A DNA stretch of 64,000 bases from Escherichia coli. Lineage in GTDB: Bacteria > Pseudomonadota > Gammaproteobacteria > Enterobacterales > Enterobacteriaceae. The stretch lies in the NCBI RefSeq assembly GCF_048403405.1, contig NZ_CP183129.1; one strand, written 5' to 3'. A program made the position numbers and the translations under genes. Each line of letters starts with the position of its first letter. The stretch's first letter is position 1. Below the pieces are notes generated by a model. That model saw nothing but the letters and a program-made list of their open reading frames with translations, was not told where the DNA came from and did no database searches. Below are positions 4,972-15,680 of this stretch, piece by piece.

Positions 4972-5164
4972 GAATCCTCCCGGGCGGGATAATGTTGTGA
5001 GTCAGATAAGGAGCAGGCTGAAGTCCGGAAGTTACAGGACAATGGCAGAAGGGAGACTACAGCCCGCAATTCGAAAAAGACCGCGCAGTTGCGCAGAGTG
5101 ATTACTATGGGGTATTATTCGCCAGCTGAAATATTACTTCACGTTTTATTGTTTATTCCTTGCC

Positions 5165-5193
5165 GCCCGCGTCTCCCAGCGCGGGCTTTTTTT
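5165..5193 (+). terminator. intrinsic terminator oriented for the plus strand
   Basis: gcccgcg / cgcgggc 7-bp stem, 8-nt loop, then ttttttt. Confidence 0.6.
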
Positions 5194-5202
5194 GTCCATA
5201 AG

Positions 5203-5436
5203 AAAGCCCCTCCGGAGAGGGGCTAAAGCCGCGTATCTGTATCATCATGCACATGGTGCCGGGTGCCTCCCGGTGAGTTCAGCCCGGTGCCACTAAACCC
5301 GCGTCATTCTCGTTTTGATAATCAGAGATTATACCGTCACCAGTCGCCCCTCCGCTCAGGGGGATTCACCATGCGAAATTTTTTTAACAAATGCCCAGTC
5401 TGACAGGCAACTGTCAACTTACTGAATTGTGAGCAA
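5203..5436 (-). repeat. copy 1 of a tandem ~220-bp structured element (candidate sRNA unit)
   Basis: Direct repeat of 5690..5904 (roughly three-quarters identity by eye); shares the hairpins agcccctc-cgga-gaggggct and ggtgccgggtgcctcccggtga; on the minus strand the unit ends in hairpin plus T-tract. Confidence 0.6.
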
Positions 5437-5689
5437 CATAGCATTTAACGGGGAACCTGTTTTCTGCAGTAAAAAGGCCCACCGGAGCGGATGGGCCTGG
5501 AAGGATAGCGGTCATGTGATGCCGGTTTCCCGGTAACTCAGCACCGGTATCTGAGTCAACGTTTTCTCTACTGGGTCATTTCCGATACGCCCTGCCTGCT
5601 GACAGGCTTTCATCACATCTGAAAATATAGCACCCTGACTGATACTGTAGTACCTAAGGTTCCAGAAACTGTGATGTATCCGGCACAGA

Positions 5690-5904
5690 AAAGCCCCTCC
5701 GGAGAGGGGCTGGAGAGTGGCGCTATGTGCCATTGCATGGTGCCGGGTGCCTCCCGGTGAATTCAGTACCAGCACCTGAATCCGCGATTATCCCATATAC
5801 CTACTCGCTGATTGCCCCTCCGCACAGGGGGATTCACCATGCCAGTTTCTTTTAACAAACTCCCCGCAAACCAGACAACAGTCAACCGCCTGAATTGTGA
5901 GACA
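5690..5904 (-). repeat. copy 2 of the tandem structured element
   Basis: Same hairpin set and shared segments (gggggattcaccatgc, tgaattgtgag) as copy 1. Confidence 0.6.
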
Positions 5905-5945
5905 TTTAAAAAAAAGCCCGCAAAAGCGAGCCAGGGAAAATAAGT

Positions 5946-6022
5946 GTGGCGCGTTGTACTGGATTCGAACCAGTGACCGATTGCTTAGAAGGCAATTGCT
6001 CTGTCCGGCTGAGCTAACAACG
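5946..6022 (-). tRNA. argO: tRNA-Arg (anticodon UCU), phage argO-like
   Basis: Reverse complement folds as canonical cloverleaf: acceptor GCGTTGT/ACAACGC, anticodon loop CTTCTAA, T-loop TTCGAAT, 3' CCA. Confidence 0.85.
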
Positions 6023-6035
6023 CAGGATACAGATA

Positions 6036-6113
6036 ATGGACCGCCTTCGGGGACCCGAACTCCGCGCAACCAGCTTCGAAGGCTGGCGCTCTTTCCTGAT
6101 GAGCTAATGGCGG
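6036..6113 (-). tRNA. argN: tRNA-Arg-like (anticodon UCG inferred), phage argN-like, possibly degenerate
   Basis: Cloverleaf with anticodon stem CCAGC/GCTGG and loop CTTCGAA, but one acceptor mismatch, one T-stem mismatch and atypical T-loop TTCGGGT. Confidence 0.6.
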
Positions 6114-6120
6114 TATGTGA

Positions 6121-6196
6121 TGGTGGCCCTTGCTGGATTTGAACCAGCGACCTGGCGATTATGAGTCGCTCGCTCTCACCACTGAGCTAAAGGGCC
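6121..6196 (-). tRNA. ileZ: tRNA-Ile2-like (anticodon CAU), phage ileZ-like
   Basis: Reverse complement GGCCCTTTAGCTCAGTGGTGAGAGCG...CTCATAA...TTCAAATCCAGCAAGGGCCACCA closely resembles E. coli ileX as recalled. Confidence 0.85.
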
Positions 6197-6245
6197 GGAA
6201 GCAGAATAATAATGGTGCGTAATTAATTCTGCAATCTCATCCGTT

Positions 6246-6572
6246 TCAAACGATTAAATCCTGAACTTCCCTGACTGTCTGCTCAAAACGTCCGGTCTCC
6301 AGTTCAACGCCAATCGCACGACGCCCGAGCGCCAGTGCCGCTTTTACCGTTGAACCTGAGCCCATAAAAAAATCTGCAACCAGGTCTCCCGGACGACTGC
6401 TTGCGCTGATTATCTGCTGCAGCATTTCTGCCGGTTTTTCGCACGGATGTTTCCCGGGATAGAACTGCACCGGTTTATGCGTCCAGACATCGGTATACGG
6501 CACCTGCGCTGTCACGCCAAAATACCGCCGCAGTCGGCATTCACAACCACAAGCGTGTTTAACGTACTGCAC
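6246..6572 (-). pseudogene. 5'-truncated DNA methyltransferase remnant (C-terminal half only)
   Basis: Carries HPCEKP and FMGSGST motifs but no upstream DPPY-type catalytic motif; in-frame stop 2 codons upstream of the GTG; only ~110 bp to the next gene. Confidence 0.6.
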
Positions 6573-6585
6573 AGCTTTTCAGACA

Positions 6586-6612
6586 TAAAAAGGCCGCCTG
6601 ATAGCAGCCTTT
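6586..6612 (-). terminator. intrinsic terminator downstream of the PP2C gene
   Basis: On minus strand aggctgc-tatcag-gcggcct stem (one G-U pair) followed by ttttt. Confidence 0.5.
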
Positions 6613-6682
6613 TCACATTAAAATTAAGTTTTTCTTTACTCTGTAGTATGGGAAATTAGCATTCCCTACTGGGTTTATACAA

Positions 6683-7426
6683 CTAATCTGACGTCACACG
6701 CACCATTATACTTACTAAAGAAAAGTCATCATCAGGTCCGGCTCTCTCTATACGACGCAAAATACCATTAGAAAACTTCTGACTATTACTCATAGTATTT
6801 GATGTAAATCTGGGGCGTTTTTCCCAAACGTTATGAACTCCATCAGACATGATACACAGATGATACAACCCGTTAATACCAGGCAAATCTTTCCACGGGA
6901 TAAAATCACAGTCGTATTCCATATCAACATTTGAGGCTATGGCAGTCGTTAAGATATTTTTTCCCGGTTTATTCTTCAAATCTCTGGGTTTAAAAATATT
7001 CTGATCAATTAACATCTGATGTCTGGTATCGTCCTTCGTCAATTGATATGCTTTCTTTTCTCCAATGCAATACAAGCGACAATCACCAATATGACCAATA
7101 ATAATTCCGCTATCACAAACATAACAAAAGGTAAGTGTAGTAGCAGCTTTATCGAACTCATCATTAACTTCAGCTAACGACATAACTTTTCGCTTAACTT
7201 CAGCAAATACATTCGGAACTGCATCAAAAGATAAACTTGTCAATGCTGAAAGTTCAGCGATTGCCATGGATGAAGCATAACTGGCACCAGAGTATGAACC
7301 TACACCATCAGCTACGGCAAATAAGATGCCGTCTCCTACAATTTTTGGAGGAAGCAATGAATCTTCGTTGACCCTACCTGGTTCTTTTGGATACGAGAAT
7401 GATGAAGTCGCTATCAGCTGAATCAT
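6683..7426 (-). CDS. PP2C-family (PPM) Ser/Thr protein phosphatase
   Basis: Motifs NEDS, FAVADGVGS, GHIGDCR, MSDGV in PP2C order; ATG with AAGGAG Shine-Dalgarno; 103 bp downstream of the kinase gene. Confidence 0.8.
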   Translation of the reverse strand: MIQLIATSSFSYPKEPGRVNEDSLLPPKIVGDGILFAVADGVGSYSGASYASSMAIAELSALTSLSFDAVPNVFAEVKRKVMSLAEVNDEFDKAATTLTFCYVCDSGIIIGHIGDCRLYCIGEKKAYQLTKDDTRHQMLIDQNIFKPRDLKNKPGKNILTTAIASNVDMEYDCDFIPWKDLPGINGLYHLCIMSDGVHNVWEKRPRFTSNTMSNSQKFSNGILRRIERAGPDDDFSLVSIMVRVTSD

Positions 7427-7529
7427 GACTCACTCCTTAAAAAAGAATGCGCAAAATCAAACGCCACATCATCTATTGTCTGATATCTATCATCTTTATC
7501 CATCCTTGTGCACTTAGCTATGATAGGCT

Positions 7530-8186
7530 TTATTTTTTATCATCTAAATTTAAGTCTTCAATTAACCGTCCCACAGCATAAACATCAGTCTTAACTGAAT
7601 ACTCTGCATTATATAAAATCTCGGGAGCCATATATCTTGTACTTCCCATACGGGTACCGATCTCGGTCAATTTAGTGGTATCCCCTTCGGGATTCGTATC
7701 TTTTACCAGACCAAAATCAGACACCTTGTATGTTCCGTCGCTAAATCGCAAAACATTAAAGGGTTTTATATCTCTGTGTAAATAGCCTTTGGCATGGATG
7801 TAAGCTACACCATCTAATACCATTTTCACTATTGAAATTTTTTGATCTGTTGTAAGAAGGTTGTTCGTTATTTCGTGCTCAAGATCACATTCTGCTTTAT
7901 CCATAATGAACCATGGATTCTCAACAAACAAATCGCACAAATAAATAGGAACAATATTGCTATGTACGCAATGTGATTGATACACAACCTCCCTTTTAAA
8001 ACGCCTTCTAAACTGCTCTATTTGCGCCAAAAGCTCTGGTTTTTCGGGTGCTAAAACCTTTCTAGCATAATCCCCGCATTCACCTTTATTGAGGTTGTAA
8101 ACCTTAACGTGTTCAACAAAGCCAAATGCCCCTCTTCCAATCAACTGAATTCGTTTTATAAAGTAATTACCGTGCTGTTCTTCCAT
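7530..8186 (-). CDS. Hanks-type (eukaryotic-like) Ser/Thr protein kinase
   Basis: Gly-rich loop GRGAFGFV, catalytic loop HRDIKPFN, DFG (VSDFGLV) and APE (YMAPEIL) motifs; start taken at internal ATG 8186 because the ORF's TTG start lies inside the upstream terminator hairpin. Confidence 0.8.
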   Translation of the reverse strand: MEEQHGNYFIKRIQLIGRGAFGFVEHVKVYNLNKGECGDYARKVLAPEKPELLAQIEQFRRRFKREVVYQSHCVHSNIVPIYLCDLFVENPWFIMDKAECDLEHEITNNLLTTDQKISIVKMVLDGVAYIHAKGYLHRDIKPFNVLRFSDGTYKVSDFGLVKDTNPEGDTTKLTEIGTRMGSTRYMAPEILYNAEYSVKTDVYAVGRLIEDLNLDDKK

Positions 8187-8258
8187 TAAGCTCACCGACC
8201 TAAATTGTAACAATATCCATATATTACAACTACAGATAAAAAGGTCCACAGAGTTAAG

Positions 8259-8287
8259 CAAAAAACCCGCACATTTGAGCGGGTTTA
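8259..8287 (-). terminator. intrinsic terminator immediately after the Q-like gene (tR'-like)
   Basis: Minus strand aaacccgc-tcaaatgt-gcgggtttttt. Confidence 0.6.
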
Positions 8288-8332
8288 TACACTTTACAGC
8301 AATATATCACATTTACATAAAATATATGCTAT

Positions 8333-9028
8333 CTAATTGACTTTTGCAATATCTCGCTGCAAAAATGCCGCTTTTTGTTGAGATCTCCTTTTCACAGTGC
8401 AAATCAGAGATTCGGTATCGAGGTTCATAAAAATGTCGAGTATTTCACGCCAGTAGCTCACATAATTGTGGCTCCAGTTGTCAGGCTTAATCCCACACAG
8501 ACGGGCAAGCTCCTGTTGCTGGTAGATATCATGTCCTATAACCCATCTCCTGACATCCTGTGCAGCCAGCCAGATTAATTTTTTCAGGCGTTCCTGTGTC
8601 TTCCCTGCAATTTTCCTGGTACCAGAGTGAGTCTTAAATTCTGTCCATGCCCACTGCGTTATCGCGATCTGATACTCCCAGCAAGTATTTCCGCTGTAAC
8701 ACCACAACAACCAGGCTTTATGATGTTCTTCAAGAGACAAAACAGCCCGCCGCCATGATGATGTAGAAAAAGCAACCTGACTGACCAGAGGAATTGACGT
8801 CCCCTTCGCCAGCGATTGTTTTCCCGGGATTGGTGGATTATCCCGCGTTATCATTTTTCCGGTCACTTCATCGCGGTACCGGATTTTTTTACGCCTGTAA
8901 CGCCCTGTATCGAACATGGCATTCTCCTGCCAGGCTTCAAGCTGACCTTTTGTTGCCCCACTCAAATCAGCGGTGGCGATAATGAGCTGCTCACGCACAA
9001 ACTGTAAATACTGGTTATTCATGCGCAC
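8333..9028 (-). CDS. putative late-gene antiterminator (Q-like)
   Basis: 231-aa protein directly downstream of rusA and upstream of terminator, tRNAs and lysis genes; assignment by position, not by a recognised motif. Confidence 0.45.
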   Translation of the reverse strand: MRMNNQYLQFVREQLIIATADLSGATKGQLEAWQENAMFDTGRYRRKKIRYRDEVTGKMITRDNPPIPGKQSLAKGTSIPLVSQVAFSTSSWRRAVLSLEEHHKAWLLWCYSGNTCWEYQIAITQWAWTEFKTHSGTRKIAGKTQERLKKLIWLAAQDVRRWVIGHDIYQQQELARLCGIKPDNWSHNYVSYWREILDIFMNLDTESLICTVKRRSQQKAAFLQRDIAKVN

Positions 9029-9378
9029 TCCAGTTCTGTGATTTTTATCCCCAGCCGCCCACCAGGAACGAGCTGACCGCGCACAATATTGATTTCATCA
9101 AACTGCTCGTCGTCTATAAGTAGTCCGGCATGCGTCAGCGCATCCAGTGGTGCCTTCAGGATATTGTCCAGGTCGCGGCGGCGCTTATCCGGTGGCTCTG
9201 CAATCACCTTTATCGCCAGCCTTCCGGACAGGCTTAATTTCAGCCGCTGCTGGCGAACAATAAGCGCCACAGCCCGGCGATAACGCTTTCCCTCCTCCGA
9301 GATAAAATATGTGCTGCCACGGCGTCGCCAGTAAGTGTTCACCGTCGGCGGGTAAGGTAAAACCAAATCTATGAGCAT
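9019..9378 (-). CDS. rusA: RusA Holliday-junction resolvase
   Basis: 119 aa; conserved PDKRRRDLDN and GGRLGIKITE segments match RusA as recalled. Confidence 0.85.
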   Translation of the reverse strand: MLIDLVLPYPPTVNTYWRRRGSTYFISEEGKRYRRAVALIVRQQRLKLSLSGRLAIKVIAEPPDKRRRDLDNILKAPLDALTHAGLLIDDEQFDEINIVRGQLVPGGRLGIKITELECA

Positions 9379-11101: not shown

Positions 11102-12208
11102 TCAAACAATCTGGAAAATATTTCTTGGATTTGTAATAGGTCTGTTGATGGAGAACAACTCACGAATTAAATCTTGGCTCAAGCCAGTTTTCATAAGAAT
11201 TCTTAGCCAGGTTGCATCATCCAGCATTTCAATCGCCTCGGCCAGCATGCCGGGTTCTTCAGGGCGCAAAAGTTCATCACCAGGTTCAACTCTCGTATAC
11301 CCTCTGGAATTAAGATGCATATAGCCAGTTCTTGCCTGTTCCTGGGTCAATAAGCCTAATGCGCTGGCTCGATAAATACACATTTTAAGGCTGATTTTCC
11401 ATCTAAGTTTAAATTCAACCAGAGCATTCCAGTCGAATTGCTTACCTCGTATTCGTGGAAATTCTTTAATGAAAGATAACCTGGGAACTAATAAGGCGCT
11501 CGAAAAGTGATCGGCTTGTGATTCCGTAAGTTTATCACCTGTCGTTATGCCCTCATGCATTACTAAATGCCCTAATTCATGACCTAAATCAGAGCGAAAT
11601 CTACATATGCTTTTTTTAACATTGTTCCTGATGATAACAGGCCTGTTATTGTGAACAGTAAAAGCATCAACACGATCATCGACTCCCGTAACATGCGCAA
11701 CGATTACCCCTAAACTCTCCGCCAATTTAACCATTGATGATATAGGGCCAAGACCTAAATTCCAGGCACGGCGACAATCTTCTGCCACTCGCTCAATATC
11801 ATTCGGAGTAAGTAATTCAGCCCCTGGGTGCTCCGGTATGTTAACGTCAGGAAATTCGATTTCACCTTCAACAGCAGAAATTATAATATTAAGAATCTCA
11901 GCCCTGGCCAATACACTATTAGTCAGCGTTTGAGTCCTGGACTTCTTACTCCGAAAATGGCAGACATCACTTTCCAGAGCGTATTTTCGTTCAGTAAAAA
12001 GAAAACTGGACTTAATCATAAGCGCTGAAGATATTAACTCAAGACATTGCTCCGATGGCCTGCACCCCTTCTCCAGTTTGCTAACGAATTGCTTTGTCTT
12101 GCCAATTTTTTCGGCTAACTCTTCACAAGAAAGCCCAACAGCCATTCTCGCTAGTTTGAGCTTATCACCCCGATACTCAGTGAAGTTATTCACCTGATGT
12201 TCCATCAC
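11102..12208 (-). CDS. HTH (XRE-family) + ImmA/IrrE-type M78 zinc metallopeptidase fusion protein
   Basis: N-terminal helix-turn-helix (LKLARMAVGLSCEELAEKIGKTKQFVSKLEKG); C-terminal HExxH (HELGHLVMHE); start overlaps the upstream gene by 23 bp. Confidence 0.8.
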   Translation of the reverse strand: MMEHQVNNFTEYRGDKLKLARMAVGLSCEELAEKIGKTKQFVSKLEKGCRPSEQCLELISSALMIKSSFLFTERKYALESDVCHFRSKKSRTQTLTNSVLARAEILNIIISAVEGEIEFPDVNIPEHPGAELLTPNDIERVAEDCRRAWNLGLGPISSMVKLAESLGVIVAHVTGVDDRVDAFTVHNNRPVIIRNNVKKSICRFRSDLGHELGHLVMHEGITTGDKLTESQADHFSSALLVPRLSFIKEFPRIRGKQFDWNALVEFKLRWKISLKMCIYRASALGLLTQEQARTGYMHLNSRGYTRVEPGDELLRPEEPGMLAEAIEMLDDATWLRILMKTGLSQDLIRELFSINRPITNPRNIFQIV

Positions 12209-12836
12209 TGCTCACATCCAAATCTTTATCCTTCGTACGCCGACGAAGAGGCACCTTATTAATCTCCGCTTCGTCAGGGAGTGTGTTATAATCAAGAGGC
12301 ATAAGCGGCATCGATGCTGTAGATTGATGAGAAACTATACTAATCTGAGCACCATAAGTATTAAATCCAACAAGAGCTACCTCCCAACGAGGCAGTGTGG
12401 ACTCTAATTCACCATCGCCCTCTTCGGATAAAAAAGGCTCAGCTATGACTCGCCATGTAATATCTTGCTCAGCCTCAACATCACCAAACAATGAGAGCTG
12501 CTCATACTCTACTTTATTTCGACGCAGACGATGTTTCTTTTTGGGGTTATTAATGCAATCTTTGGTAAATTGTAGCGGAACTTTATTTAAAGCAACTACA
12601 TAGTCCAACCCCTTGGAAATCATCTCAAGGCCAGGAATTGCATCTTCATTTTGAATAAGATGATTTCTGACCCAATCATAAGCCCTTACACCTTCAGACC
12701 AGTTGCTGTCTAATGCGTGCTTATGATAGTACAGCTGCTCAAGTACGTTAGCGATCTCCGCCAACAAGTGGCGAACATAGTTTTCAGCAAGATAAGGTTG
12801 AAATTCCCAACAAGGAGCTAACTGATTTTCATTCAT
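12186..12836 (-). CDS. hypothetical 216-aa protein with no recognisable domain, first gene of the cassette
   Basis: ATG at 12836; basic patch NPKKKHRLRRNK, acidic C-terminus; translationally coupled to the HTH-peptidase gene. Confidence 0.6.
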   Translation of the reverse strand: MNENQLAPCWEFQPYLAENYVRHLLAEIANVLEQLYYHKHALDSNWSEGVRAYDWVRNHLIQNEDAIPGLEMISKGLDYVVALNKVPLQFTKDCINNPKKKHRLRRNKVEYEQLSLFGDVEAEQDITWRVIAEPFLSEEGDGELESTLPRWEVALVGFNTYGAQISIVSHQSTASMPLMPLDYNTLPDEAEINKVPLRRRTKDKDLDVSSDGTSGE

Positions 12837-14081: not shown

Positions 14082-14135
14082 GAAAATAGCACAGAGTGTA
14101 GCATCAGAGTGTACTGACCCCAAAAAGTTGGACAG

Positions 14136-14987
14136 TTAAACACGAGGCATATAGGTCTGATTCCGATATTCAATTGGAGTCAGACCTTTTAATTTCAGGC
14201 TAATTCTTCTGCTGTTGTAGTATTCAATATATTCCGTAACAGCATCCTTCAGTTCGCTTATATTACTGAACTCATCAAGATAAAAACACTCCGACTTTAA
14301 GGTTCCAAAGAAACACTCCACCACAGCATTATCCAGACAATTGCCTTTTCTGGACATGCTTTGTTTAATACCATGTTCTTTAAGGATATTTTGATATCTT
14401 CTCATACGATACTGCCATCCCTGGTCAGAGTGCAGAACAGGATGCTCGTGAGGATTAAGCTTTTTGAATGCCTGATCGAGCATATTCTCAACCATGTTCA
14501 TCACTGGTCTTTCCGAAAGGCTGTAAGAAATAACTTCGTTGTTGAAGAGATCTATTACTGGAGACAAATACAGCTTGCGCCCATTGACTGCAAATTCAGT
14601 AACATCGGTAACCCACTTCTCGTTTGGCCGCGTAGCCTTGAAATCTCTTTGGAGAACATTAGGGGCGGTTTGCCCTACCTCTCCTCTGTAAGAGCGGTAT
14701 CGCTTGACCTTAATCGCTGCTTTAAGTGAGAGGGTTCCCATCAGGCGCTGAACAGCTTTATGGTTAATCTGTTTCCCTTCTCGATGAAGAGACAGCGTTA
14801 CCCTACGGTATCCGTATCGGCCTCTATTCTCGTGATAAATCTCACTAATACGCTTTTTAACGTCCGCATACTTGTCAGGCTTGCTGAGAGCCTTTAGATG
14901 ATAATAAAACGTACTGCGCGGTATCTCCGCAGCCCTGAGAAGCTCATCAAGAGGATAAAACTGCCTTAGCTCGTTGAGTACTTTCAC
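14136..14987 (-). CDS. insK: IS150 transposase OrfB (integrase/DDE domain)
   Basis: 283 aa; matches InsK as recalled; overlaps OrfA in the -1 frame. Confidence 0.9.
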
Positions 14988-15505
14988 TTTTTCGTGGGAT
15001 GAGCTAAGGCTTTCAGCTTTTTTAGATACATAAGCCGCGTTTCAAGAAATCGAACTTGCCTTTCAAGATCCTCAATGCGTCGGTCTTTTGACAGCTCCAA
15101 TGCTGATGCCGCTTTTTCTGGATCAACTGATATTGCAATGTTTCTTTTGGTGCCAATCTTGAGCGCGCGTAAACCAGCTTCTCCGCGCTCTTCATAGACC
15201 TTCAGCCACCTGGCTACAGAACCACTACCAGCAAGCATAAAGTGAGCAGCAGCCTGATTAAGGGACATGTGCTGCTCGATCACAGCTTTCACGACCTTAA
15301 TACGCAACTCTGGATCAGCACTAACGCCTTTAGGTTTGGGAATTAAACCTTTTTCTCCATGTTTTTCATAGAGGGCAACCCATGTCCTGACCTGGGTTCG
15401 GGGGACACCAAAACGTGCCGAGATGATCCTGTAACCATCATCAGTTGTGAAGTAGTGATTCACGACTTCAAGGCGCTTTTCAAAAGGGTATTTTGGCTTT
15501 GACAT
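14984..15505 (-). CDS. insJ: IS150 transposase OrfA (HTH)
   Basis: 173 aa; MSKPKYPFEKRLEVVNHYF... matches InsJ as recalled. Confidence 0.9.
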   Translation of the reverse strand: MSKPKYPFEKRLEVVNHYFTTDDGYRIISARFGVPRTQVRTWVALYEKHGEKGLIPKPKGVSADPELRIKVVKAVIEQHMSLNQAAAHFMLAGSGSVARWLKVYEERGEAGLRALKIGTKRNIAISVDPEKAASALELSKDRRIEDLERQVRFLETRLMYLKKLKALAHPTKK

Positions 15506-15680
15506 ATTAGGGGCTATTCCATTTCATCGTCCAACAAAATGGGTGCAGTACAGAGCAGGGCTATCGGGAATATATGTCTAAATCTGGTAATATCTGGTTT
15601 TGACGCAAAGCGGACAACCACGCTGGCTCTACCCTGCGCCATGAAAATGTCAATTCACATCTGAACTAATGCTCTTTAAT

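What the first reader, a model, noticed from the sequence alone, without database searches (positions are those of the whole stretch)
8187..8332. Terminator and palindrome-containing promoter region immediately after the Q-like gene
A strong intrinsic terminator directly follows the Q-like gene, in the position expected for the late promoter and its terminator. Downstream of the hairpin and upstream of the kinase start is an inverted repeat (ttgtaa...ttacaa). This would make the kinase/phosphatase Q-dependent late cargo, or separately regulated if the palindrome is an operator.
Basis: inference. Interest (0 to 1): 0.3.

Follow-up and report, generated by a model that had tools for sequence, protein, structure and literature searches.

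The report
Phage-82-type late promoter and terminator

Summary
All genes here are on the minus strand of an E. coli lambdoid prophage (near-identical to one in strain VR50).

**What is there.** The Q gene (8333-9022) belongs to Pfam PF06323. Its last codons overlap a sigma-70 promoter: -35 TTGCAA 8349-8344, 17-nt spacer, -10 TATATT 8326-8321. The inferred start is AAA at 8314. An extended -10-like pause element, TGaTATATT, lies at +6..+14. An intrinsic terminator follows (hairpin 8286-8263, U-tract to about 8257), predicting a terminated RNA of about 57 nt.

**How typical it is.** The promoter and pause motif keep the same spacing in 52 unique Q-downstream regions, and 61 of 63 carry a terminator there. 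The features match published descriptions of 82 pR'.

The terminator and its meaning are right. The promoter lies upstream of the hairpin, not downstream.
- The palindrome TTGTAA-N13-TTACAA (8229-8205) is real but at chance level: 19% of shuffles have one as good.
- It is lost in the nearest diverged homologue.

**The cargo.** The kinase/PP2C pair is a low-GC cassette with its own 3' terminator. It sits directly behind the late terminator of three different Q modules, so Q-dependent late expression is the best reading. A weak own promoter is not excluded.

**Verdict.** Ordinary: a new member of a known kind.

The parts
8333..9022 (-). Q antiterminator gene. It is 229 aa from ATG 9022; the open frame extends to GTG 9028. 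Stop codon TAG is at 8335-8333.
   Evidence: Pfam PF06323, E 5.6e-84, covering 1-216 of 220 profile positions. PHROG 304 'anti-termination protein Q-like', E 5.6e-102. RefSeq annotation in VR50. 2769 homologues, mostly 229 aa.
8344..8349 (-). -35 hexamer TTGCAA of the late promoter pR'. It lies inside the last codons of Q.
   Evidence: TTG and AAAA are invariant in 52 unique homologous regions.
8327..8343 (-). 17-nt promoter spacer, the candidate Q-binding element (QBE/qut). It contains the Q stop codon.
   Evidence: Positions -28A, -26T, -23A, -22T, -19A and -18A are at least 94% conserved, which is unusual for a promoter spacer. The QBE of 82/lambda lies between -35 and -10 (PMC4914094, PMC6266700). 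Binding was not tested.
8321..8326 (-). -10 hexamer TATATT of pR'.
   Evidence: -12T, -11A and -7T are conserved.
8312..8314 (-). Inferred transcription start. +1 is A 8314 and the initial sequence is AAA.
   Evidence: It lies 7 nt after the -10 hexamer. 82 pR' starts with AAA (PMC5001585). +2A and +3A are 96-98% conserved. Inferred, not mapped.
8298..8309 (-). Sigma-70-dependent pause element. It comprises the extended -10-like TGaTATATT (+6..+14) and the discriminator-like GCT (+15..+17).
   Evidence: T.TG.TAT sits at a fixed 38-nt offset from the -35 hexamer in 55 of 57 unique regions. It matches the description of 82 pR' in PMC5001585: a -10-like element with an extended -10, and GCC at +15-17. 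The composite motif has one exact match in the 64 kb.
8289..8291 (-). Predicted pause site, +24..+26 (U, G, U).
   Evidence: By analogy with the +25/+26 pause of 82 pR' (PMC5001585). Here a 1-nt insertion puts G at +25. Not testable in silico.
8257..8286 (-). Intrinsic terminator tR'. The hairpin is at 8286-8263 (+29..+52) and the U-tract runs from 8265 to about 8257.
   Evidence: 61 of 63 unique homologous regions have a terminator whose hairpin ends at +49..+93.
8257..8314 (-). Predicted short terminated pR' transcript of about 55-58 nt, the analogue of lambda 6S RNA or StxS.
   Evidence: Inferred from the +1 and tR' positions. The precedent is in PMC7547250.
8187..8256 (-). Leader of the kinase cassette. 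It contains four features:
- the inverted repeat TTGTAA (8229-8224) / TTACAA (8210-8205);
- a weak promoter-like match, TGGACC 8248-8243 and TAATAT 8226-8221;
- TGtTACAAT at 8212-8204;
- the Shine-Dalgarno sequence GGTGAG at 8196-8191.
   Evidence: The leader is homologous in L031 behind a different Q module.
7422..8186 (-). Hanks-type Ser/Thr kinase gene. It is 254 aa in relatives. In the window an A7-to-A6 run (about 7527-7532) shifts the frame and stops the protein at 219 aa (stop at 7530).
   Evidence: Pfam Pkinase, E 2e-33. PHROG 2361. Frameshift shown.
6683..7426 (-). PP2C-type Ser/Thr phosphatase gene. In intact copies its start overlaps the kinase stop by 4 nt.
   Evidence: Pfam PP2C_2, E 3.9e-14. 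NCBIfam Stp1-like, E 2e-27, below the curated cut-off. PHROG 5650.
6581..6613 (-). Intrinsic terminator closing the kinase/PP2C cassette (AAAAGGCTGCT-atca-GGCGGCCTTTT, then TAT).
   Evidence: -14.9 kcal/mol. A terminator follows the PP2C gene in all six contexts examined.
5947..6572 (-). Downstream late-leader cargo: a DNA methylase remnant (6246-6572) and three tRNA genes (CAT anticodon, Arg-TCG, Arg-TCT).

Best explanation
**What it is.** The segment 8349-8257 (minus strand) is the late-gene regulatory region of a lambdoid prophage, of the phage 82 type.

**How it works.**
1. A sigma-70 promoter (pR') overlaps the 3' end of the Q gene. By analogy with lambda and Stx phages it is constitutive. 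It starts transcription at about 8314.
2. Sigma-70 retained on the early elongation complex re-binds the extended -10-like repeat TGaTATATT at +6..+14 and pauses RNA polymerase near +25.
3. Without Q, the polymerase escapes the pause and terminates at the hairpin that begins only 3-4 nt further on (+29..+52). This releases an RNA of about 57 nt.
4. When Q has accumulated after induction, Q bound to the promoter spacer (QBE) loads onto the paused complex and makes it terminator-resistant.
5. That complex then reads through tR', the kinase/PP2C cassette and its own terminator, the methylase remnant, the three tRNA genes and at least five further terminators, and reaches the esterase, holin and lysis genes.

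**The cargo.** The kinase/PP2C pair is a horizontally acquired low-GC cassette inserted at the variable cargo site just behind tR'. Most likely it is expressed mainly as a Q-dependent late transcript.

**Shown versus inferred.**
- Shown: sequence elements, their conservation and spacing, the terminator, and gene order.
- Inferred: the start site, the pause, Q binding, and Q-dependence of the cargo.
For: **Q family.** PF06323, E 5.6e-84.

**Promoter.** TTGCAA-17-TATATT at 8349-8321.

**Match to published 82 pR'** (PMC5001585): AAA start, extended -10-like pause element, and a G/C discriminator at +15-17. The PPompW variant of this family matches every stated feature, including GCC at +15-17, G at +24 and U at +25.

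**Conservation.**
- The -35 hexamer and the pause element keep a fixed 38-nt offset in 55 of 57 unique regions, including Cronobacter phage phiES15 and phage Flotzy.
- Spacer positions are conserved.
- The composite motif has one exact match in the 64 kb; allowing one mismatch, 0.43 matches are expected by chance.
- 1624 of 5426 complete E. coli genomes match this Q-end/promoter segment.

**Terminator.** z = -3.2. 61 of 63 unique homologues have a terminator at +49..+93.

**Downstream context.**
- Late genes (holin, lysozyme, Rz, terminase) lie downstream and are co-oriented.
- Further minus-strand terminators lie at 6613-6588, 5932, 5711, 5498, 5224, 5096 and 3035.

**Cargo.**
- No promoter at 9 of 12 or better lies in the kinase leader in haplotypes A, B and C, or in phiES15 or Flotzy.
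- The same gene pair sits behind three different Q/pR'/tR' modules.
- The cassette is 34-40% GC against 50-57% in its flanks.
Against: - No transcript mapping or Q assay exists for this locus. The start site, the pause and the QBE are assigned by homology.
- The window differs from 82 pR' at +17 (T, not C). It also carries a 1-nt insertion after +18, which puts the disfavoured G at +25. In 82 a 1-nt insertion at +18 greatly weakens the pause (PMC5001585), so pausing and Q loading here could be shifted or less efficient.
- Strict Q-dependence of the cargo is uncertain for four reasons:
  - The cassette has its own 3' terminator in every context.
  - The same doublet family occurs outside Q contexts, in Pseudomonas and Vibrio, where it must have its own promoter.
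  - L034 has a 10-of-12 promoter-like site upstream of its kinase.
  - A weak TnGACC-16-TAAnAT match is retained in all three E. coli-type haplotypes.
Confidence: 0.82

Rival explanations
1. The kinase/PP2C cassette is a true moron: an independent transcription unit with its own weak promoter in the 76-nt leader and its own terminator. Candidate promoters are TGGACC-16-TAATAT (8248-8221) and the extended -10 TGtTACAAT (8212-8204). On this reading the cassette is expressed in the lysogen, for example as a kinase/phosphatase defence or regulatory module, and Q read-through only adds to that expression.
For: - A cassette-specific terminator follows the PP2C gene in all six contexts.
- The cassette is a low-GC island.
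- The doublet family occurs at prophage edges without a Q gene upstream.
- L034 has TTAAAA-18-TATAAT, a 10-of-12 match, upstream of its kinase.
- The conserved block GACCTTTTTATCTGTnGTTGTAAnATA in haplotypes A, B and C coincides with the 8-of-12 promoter-like match.
- The kinase domain resembles defence kinases: PD-T4-6 at E 1e-34, Stk2 and mad6.
Against: - An 8-of-12 match occurs in 23% of shuffles, and at 0.48 per 76 nt within the cassette itself.
- The TG of the extended -10 is lost in the majority haplotype B.
- No promoter-like site is present in the phiES15, Flotzy or L031 leaders.
- Terminators are abundant throughout this late-leader region, so a 3' terminator is weak evidence for an independent unit.
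Confidence: 0.3
2. The inverted repeat TTGTAA-N13-TTACAA is an operator for a dimeric regulator, or a regulatory mRNA hairpin. Either way it would give the kinase/PP2C genes separate control.
For: - The only two substitutions between haplotypes A and B downstream of tR' fall at mirror positions of the repeat. They turn U.G into G-C and lengthen the arms to 7 bp.
- The repeat overlaps the weak promoter-like -10 hexamer and the Shine-Dalgarno-proximal leader.
Against: - 18.6% of shuffles and 30% of 76-nt tiles have an equal or better repeat.
- The right arm is lost in L031, where the kinase is 93% identical.
- Nothing comparable is present in phiES15, Flotzy or L034.
- Leader folds have z-scores of -0.2 to -0.9.
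- Only three haplotypes exist, even after a metagenome scan, so the paired change is a single event.
- No candidate repressor gene lies adjacent.
Confidence: 0.1
3. The hairpin is only the terminator of the early-right operon that ends with Q, or an amino-acid-type attenuator. On this reading no late promoter lies between Q and the hairpin.
For: - The hairpin lies 47 nt after the Q stop codon.
- Rfam gives weak matches to Leu_leader (27.4 bits, E 0.0086) and Trp_leader (21.1 bits) over 8257-8362.
Against: - Both Rfam matches are far below the gathering scores (50 and 41).
- There is no leader peptide with a ribosome-binding site.
- A conserved promoter and pause element occupy the interval at fixed spacing in more than 50 unique loci.
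- The hairpin would also stop non-antiterminated transcripts reading through Q, but that does not exclude its role as tR'.
Confidence: 0.04

Closest known systems
Phage 82 late regulatory region (82 pR', QBE, sigma-70-dependent +25 pause, downstream terminator; Roberts and Hochschild laboratories: PMC5001585, PMC4914094)
   Same: - The Q protein is PF06323, which I take from memory (not verified here) to be the 82 Q family.
- The promoter overlaps the end of Q.
- Transcription starts with AAA.
- An extended -10-like pause element lies at +6..+14.
- G and C occupy +15 and +16.
- An intrinsic terminator lies within 100 nt.
- Conserved bases in the -35/-10 spacer lie where the QBE sits.
   Different: - +15-17 is GCT rather than GCC.
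- One extra nucleotide after +18 puts G, not U, at +25.
- The terminator belongs to the 'short' class (hairpin +29..+52), not the majority class (+45..+69).
- I could not obtain the phage 82 sequence itself. The comparison rests on features stated in the papers and on the PPompW variant, which matches all of them.
Lambda pR'-qut-tR' and its 6S RNA
   Same: The logic is the same: a constitutive late promoter, a sigma-70-dependent promoter-proximal pause, Q loading, a terminated short RNA, and processive antitermination into the lysis and structural genes.
   Different: - The Q family differs (PF03589).
- The pause is at +16/17.
- tR' is at +194, giving a 194-nt RNA against about 57 nt here.
Stx-phage pR'-tR' region and the sRNA StxS (PMC7547250; pR' region diversity in PMC6266700)
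   Same: - The region holds the same place in the genome: Q, pR'/tR', cargo, DNA methylase, a three-tRNA cluster (here CAT, Arg-TCG, Arg-TCT anticodons), the toxin site, esterase, lysis genes.
- The cargo is expressed by Q read-through.
- A short terminated RNA is made in lysogens.
   Different: - There are no stx genes here.
- In Sakai Stx phages pR' and tR' are 258 nt apart and the RNA is processed to 74 nt.
- No sequence match to a known sRNA family was found here.
Morons of lambdoid phages (accessory genes with their own promoter and terminator inside late operons, e.g. stx1 with its Fur-regulated promoter)
   Same: The cassette is a foreign-composition insert in the late operon. It is co-oriented with the operon and has its own 3' terminator.
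   Different: No convincing own promoter was found.
KKP kinase-kinase-phosphatase module of Pf prophages (PMC11341870)
   Same: It is a prophage-borne module pairing a Hanks-type Ser/Thr kinase with a PP2C phosphatase.
   Different: - KKP is a triplet in the order PP2C-kinase-kinase, with CSD and FHA fusions and genes of 900-1300 bp.
- Here the module is a kinase-then-PP2C doublet of about 250 aa each, with no extra domains.
- Function was not tested.

Membership tests
Phage-82-type Q-dependent late regulatory region (pR'-QBE-pause element-tR') | Lies immediately downstream of, and co-oriented with, a Q gene of the 82 family | tested here: met
   PF06323, E 5.6e-84. PHROG 304. The Q stop codon is at 8335-8333 and the promoter at 8349-8321. 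That PF06323 is the 82 Q family is from memory.
Phage-82-type Q-dependent late regulatory region (pR'-QBE-pause element-tR') | A sigma-70 promoter with -35 and -10 hexamers at canonical spacing | tested here: met
   TTGCAA-17-TATATT, a 9-of-12 match. Conserved in 52 unique homologues.
Phage-82-type Q-dependent late regulatory region (pR'-QBE-pause element-tR') | A -10-like (extended -10) pause-inducing element in the initial transcribed region, about +6..+14 | tested here: met
   TGaTATATT at 8309-8301. It sits at a fixed 38-nt offset from the -35 hexamer in 55 of 57 unique regions. Described for 82 in PMC5001585.
Phage-82-type Q-dependent late regulatory region (pR'-QBE-pause element-tR') | A G/C-rich discriminator-like segment at +15-17 (GCC in 82), with the pause at +25 ending in U | tested here: inconclusive
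   The window has GCT, and a 1-nt insertion puts G at +25 with U at +24 and +26. In the family, +17 is C in 92% and +25 is T in 90% of regions. The pause itself cannot be tested in silico.
Phage-82-type Q-dependent late regulatory region (pR'-QBE-pause element-tR') | A Q-binding element between -35 and -10 | tested here: inconclusive
   Spacer positions -28, -26, -23, -22, -19 and -18 are at least 94% conserved, which is consistent with a QBE. Binding was not tested.
Phage-82-type Q-dependent late regulatory region (pR'-QBE-pause element-tR') | An intrinsic terminator shortly downstream of the pause site | tested here: met
   Hairpin at +29..+52 plus a U-tract. 61 of 63 homologues have one.
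Phage-82-type Q-dependent late regulatory region (pR'-QBE-pause element-tR') | Q-dependent read-through into the lysis and morphogenesis genes | not testable with these tools
   Gene order is compatible: holin, lysozyme, Rz and terminase lie downstream and are co-oriented.
Moron (autonomous accessory transcription unit in a prophage late operon) | Own promoter upstream of the accessory gene | tested here: inconclusive
   No match at 9 of 12 or better. An 8-of-12 match is retained in three haplotypes but is at chance level, with 23% of shuffles showing one.
Moron (autonomous accessory transcription unit in a prophage late operon) | Own terminator downstream, and atypical base composition | tested here: met
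   Terminator at 6613-6588, -14.9 kcal/mol, conserved in six contexts. GC is 34-40% against 50-57% in the flanks.
   18.6% of shuffles and 30% of tiles have an equal repeat. The right arm is lost in L031, and the repeat is absent in phiES15, Flotzy and L034.
KKP kinase-kinase-phosphatase module | A triplet in the order PP2C-kinase-kinase, with CSD- and FHA-bearing kinases | tested here: not met
   Only one kinase is present, followed by one PP2C. Pfam shows no CSD or FHA domain.

The most novel reading that the evidence does not exclude
Two readings remain open, and they can be tested separately.

**(a) A Q-gated mobile cassette.** The kinase/PP2C doublet is a mobile two-gene cassette that lambdoid phages have repeatedly captured directly behind tR' of unrelated Q modules (82-type and lambda-type). 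If so, a burst of Ser/Thr phosphorylation would be gated by Q at the onset of the late phase. It could also be triggered in trans by the Q of a superinfecting phage with the same Q specificity, which would make it a Q-sensing exclusion device. The leader hairpin that carries the one compensatory change would fine-tune translation.

**(b) A regulatory small RNA.** The terminated pR' RNA of about 57 nt, presumed to be made constitutively, has an AU-rich 5' half followed by a terminator hairpin and a U6 tail. It may act as a trans-acting sRNA, as StxS does.
Probability: 0.15. Interest if true: 0.5.

Novelty: new member of a known kind. Interest (0 to 1): 0.2.

Why it matters
The switch itself is textbook, so the finding mainly serves correct annotation. 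It places pR', the pause element and tR' of this prophage to the base, and it shows that the palindrome should not be annotated as an operator.

Modest added value comes from three observations:
- 82-type late regions fall into two terminator-distance classes. In the 'short' class the hairpin starts only 3-4 nt after the pause site.
- The kinase-associated variants carry the same kind of 1-nt insertion that weakens pausing in phage 82, which is a natural test case for pause-position rules.
- A kinase/PP2C doublet recurs as the first gene pair behind the late terminator of different Q families. That makes its timing (late, Q-gated, or lysogenic) a simple experimental question.

Tried and rejected
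- **Rfam (E up to 1) over 5800-9100.** It returned the tRNAs, a truncated STnc100 match and sub-threshold Leu/Trp leader matches over the terminator. I rejected these as attenuators because the scores are far below gathering and there is no leader peptide.
- **Published 82 pR' sequence.** Supplements are not held for PMC4914094 or PMC5001585, and a full-text search for sequence strings found nothing relevant. The comparison with 82 therefore rests on features stated in the text.
- **PDB sequence search with Q.** No solved relative was found.
- **More leader haplotypes.** A metagenome scan with GGTCGGTGAGNTTAATGGAAGA gave four contigs, all haplotype A or B. The covariation test therefore stays at one event.
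- **933W Stk as a relative of the kinase.** tblastn against 50,697 phage records found no Stx-phage hit at E up to 1e-5. The nearest relatives are Flotzy (48%) and phiES15 (43%).
- **KKP membership.** Rejected on gene number, gene order and domain content.
- **LexA, CRP, Fur or TyrR boxes at the palindrome.** I considered these from memory. The spacing does not fit, and I did not pursue them.
- **Plus-strand promoter-like site at 8337-8366** (TTGACT-18-AAAAAT, antisense to Q). It is a 9-of-12 match in a region where 6.7 such matches are expected by chance. I did not follow it up.

Full report
**Setting.** All genes between about 500 and 13000 lie on the minus strand. The window is near-identical (99.98%) to a lambdoid prophage of E. 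coli VR50. The gene order, read 5' to 3' on the minus strand, is:
- DUF968, RusA, Q;
- the region under study;
- Ser/Thr kinase, PP2C phosphatase;
- a truncated DNA methylase;
- three tRNA genes (CAT, Arg-TCG and Arg-TCT anticodons);
- a terminator-rich non-coding stretch where Stx phages carry stx;
- SASA-family esterase, holin, lysozyme, Rz, terminase.

**The observation.** The hairpin is real. AAACCCGC-tcaaatgt-GCGGGTTT lies at 8286-8263 and is followed by TTTGCTT.
- The RNA from the inferred start folds at -16.5 kcal/mol, z = -3.2, and no shuffle out of 200 folds as well.
- The inverted repeat is also real: TTGTAA at 8229-8224 and TTACAA at 8210-8205. However, 18.6% of dinucleotide shuffles of the 76-nt leader, and 30% of 76-nt tiles of the window, contain a repeat at least as good.

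**What the region is.** The Q protein is a full-length member of PF06323 (E 5.6e-84) and of PHROG 304. From memory, PF06323 is the phage 82 Q family.
- The only promoter-like site at 9 of 12 or better on this strand near the finding is TTGCAA-17-TATATT at 8349-8321. Its -35 hexamer lies in the last Q codons, and the Q stop codon lies in the spacer.
- Seven nucleotides after the -10 hexamer comes AAA (8314-8312).
- The repeat TGaTATATT follows at +6..+14, then GCT at +15-17.
- PMC5001585 describes 82 pR' as starting with AAA, carrying a -10-like pause element with an extended -10, GCC at +15-17, and a pause at +25/+26 whose RNA ends in U with G just before it. PMC4914094 and PMC6266700 place the Q-binding element between -35 and -10.
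- The related phage PPompW has the same Q family and the same promoter, and its initial transcribed region fits every one of those statements.

**Conservation.** I collected Q-downstream regions from 80 IMG/VR contigs and added the window, PPompW, an O157:H7 prophage, Cronobacter phage phiES15 and phage Flotzy.
- In 55 of 57 unique sequences the -35 hexamer (TTGnAAA) and the pause element (TnTGrTAT) sit exactly 38 nt apart.
- Beyond the bases used to find them, spacer positions -28A, -26T, -23A, -22T, -19A and -18A, the -10 hexamer, +2/+3 AA, +14T, +17C and +25T are at least 90% conserved.
- The composite motif has a single exact match in the 64-kb window, at 8349-8304. Allowing one mismatch gives four matches where 0.43 are expected by chance.
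- 61 of 63 unique regions have an intrinsic terminator whose hairpin ends between +49 and +93, with a median of +69.
- There are two classes. The majority class has its hairpin at about +45..+69. A short class has it at +27/29..+49/52; this class includes the window, haplotype B, an O157:H7 prophage, Flotzy, phiES15 and L031.
- About 30% of complete E. coli genomes (1624 of 5426) match the Q-end/promoter segment.

This is therefore a very common and well-understood element.

**Differences from 82.**
- The window has T at +17.
- It also has one extra nucleotide after +18, so +25 is G, flanked by U at +24 and +26. Haplotype B shares the insertion.
[quoted passage not shown] The exact pause position and strength here are therefore uncertain.

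**The cargo and how it is probably expressed.** Homology to other 82-type loci ends at the terminator. Behind it different prophages carry tRNAs, a methylase, hypothetical genes, or the holin directly. This is the variable cargo site.

Features of the cassette in the window:
- The cargo is a low-GC cassette (34-40% against 50-57% in the flanks).
- It encodes a Hanks-type kinase with intact G-loop, HRD, DFG and APE motifs, and a PP2C phosphatase.
- It is closed by its own terminator at 6613-6588. A terminator follows the PP2C gene in all six contexts examined.

Where else the pair occurs:
- In phiES15 and in L031 the same pair lies directly behind an 82-type Q and tR'.
- In L034 and in Yersinia prophages it lies behind a lambda-type Q (PF03589) with its own terminator.
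- In Flotzy it lies between the spanin and terminase genes.
- In L031 the mosaic joint falls exactly at the start of the terminator hairpin.

Promoter evidence:
- No promoter-like site at 9 of 12 or better lies in the kinase leader of haplotypes A, B or C, or in phiES15 or Flotzy. Only L034 has one, a 10-of-12 match.
- Together with at least six further minus-strand terminators before the holin gene, this favours expression by Q-modified polymerase from pR'.

Points against strict Q-dependence:
- The doublet family is widespread in Gammaproteobacteria. It also occurs away from any Q gene, at the edge of a P2/HP1-like prophage in Pseudomonas syringae and in Vibrio.
- A weak TnGACC-16-TAAnAT match (8 of 12) is retained in all three haplotypes, but 23% of shuffles have one.

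I put the own-promoter (moron) reading at about 0.3.

**The palindrome.**
- It is at chance level.
- Its right arm is lost in L031, where the kinase is 93% identical.
- It has no counterpart in the more distant loci.
- One observation remains unexplained. The only two substitutions between haplotypes A and B downstream of tR' lie at mirror positions of the repeat. They change a U.G pair into G-C in the predicted leader hairpin.
- This is a single event. The folds are not more stable than shuffles (z = -0.2 to -0.9), and a metagenome scan yielded no further haplotypes.
- An operator or regulatory hairpin is therefore possible but unsupported, at about 0.1.

**Comparison with known systems.**
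- The region works like, and by sequence belongs to, the phage 82 class of lambdoid late regulatory regions.
- It follows the same logic as lambda pR'-qut-tR' and the Stx-phage pR' region. In those systems the constitutively made, terminated RNA (6S RNA, StxS) is known, and StxS is a functional sRNA (PMC7547250).
- The cargo resembles a moron in composition and in having a terminator, but not in having a demonstrable promoter.
- It is not a KKP module (PMC11341870).

**Verdict.**
The terminator holds. The palindrome is present but at chance level. The promoter is mislocated.
The late promoter/terminator reading and the Q-dependent cargo hold. The operator does not.
- Novelty: a new member of a known kind. 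Interest is low.

Noticed in passing
window 7527-7532 (kinase gene 7422-8186, minus strand): The window has an A6 run where 26 of 28 related loci have A7. The frameshift truncates the kinase from 254 to 219 aa and uncouples it from the overlapping PP2C start. Two other assemblies (L032, L120) share the A6 allele, so it is either a real minority allele or a homopolymer sequencing error.
   Followed up: yes
window 14110-15550: There is a 1441-bp insertion relative to the otherwise identical VR50 prophage. It encodes two minus-strand ORFs with HTH and rve integrase-core domains, so it is an IS3-family element.
   Followed up: partly
window 5081-5932, minus strand: Five strong intrinsic terminators lie within 850 bp between the tRNA genes and the esterase gene, at the site where Stx phages carry stx. 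One hairpin (AGCCCCTCTCCGGAGGGGCT) occurs twice. There is also an Rfam STnc100 match at 5800-5871 (48.7 bits against a gathering score of 47), cut off by the search boundary.
   Followed up: no
window 6246-6572, minus strand: This DNA methylase gene lacks its N-terminal part. In the related prophage L003 the kinase/PP2C cassette is followed by a small hypothetical gene and a full-length methylase, so the window carries a deletion between the cassette terminator and the methylase.
   Followed up: partly
L031 2841-2960, compared with phiES15 (L005) and the window: A mosaic joint lies exactly at the start of the tR' hairpin. L031 is phiES15-like up to the pause element and window-like from AAACCCGC onward. 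This suggests that the shared terminator stem serves as a recombination boundary between the Q modules and the cargo modules.
   Followed up: partly
window 11102-12836, minus strand: A 368-aa protein with HTH_3 and IrrE/ImmA-like Peptidase_M78 domains overlaps the end of a 216-aa protein that has no Pfam match. The pair lies in the prophage early region and could be an anti-repressor or an accessory regulatory pair.
   Followed up: no
window 8337-8366, plus strand: A promoter-like site (TTGACT-18-AAAAAT, with TG) points antisense into the Q gene, which recalls lambda paQ. It is a 9-of-12 match in a region where about 7 such matches are expected by chance.
   Followed up: no
L121/L122 (Yersinia), L123 (Pseudomonas syringae), L124 (Vibrio vulnificus): The doublet of a roughly 250-aa kinase and a roughly 245-aa PP2C, with overlapping genes, is a conserved cassette across Gammaproteobacteria. 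It always occurs as a pair, and it is often found in or at the edge of prophages. Its function is unknown.
   Followed up: partly
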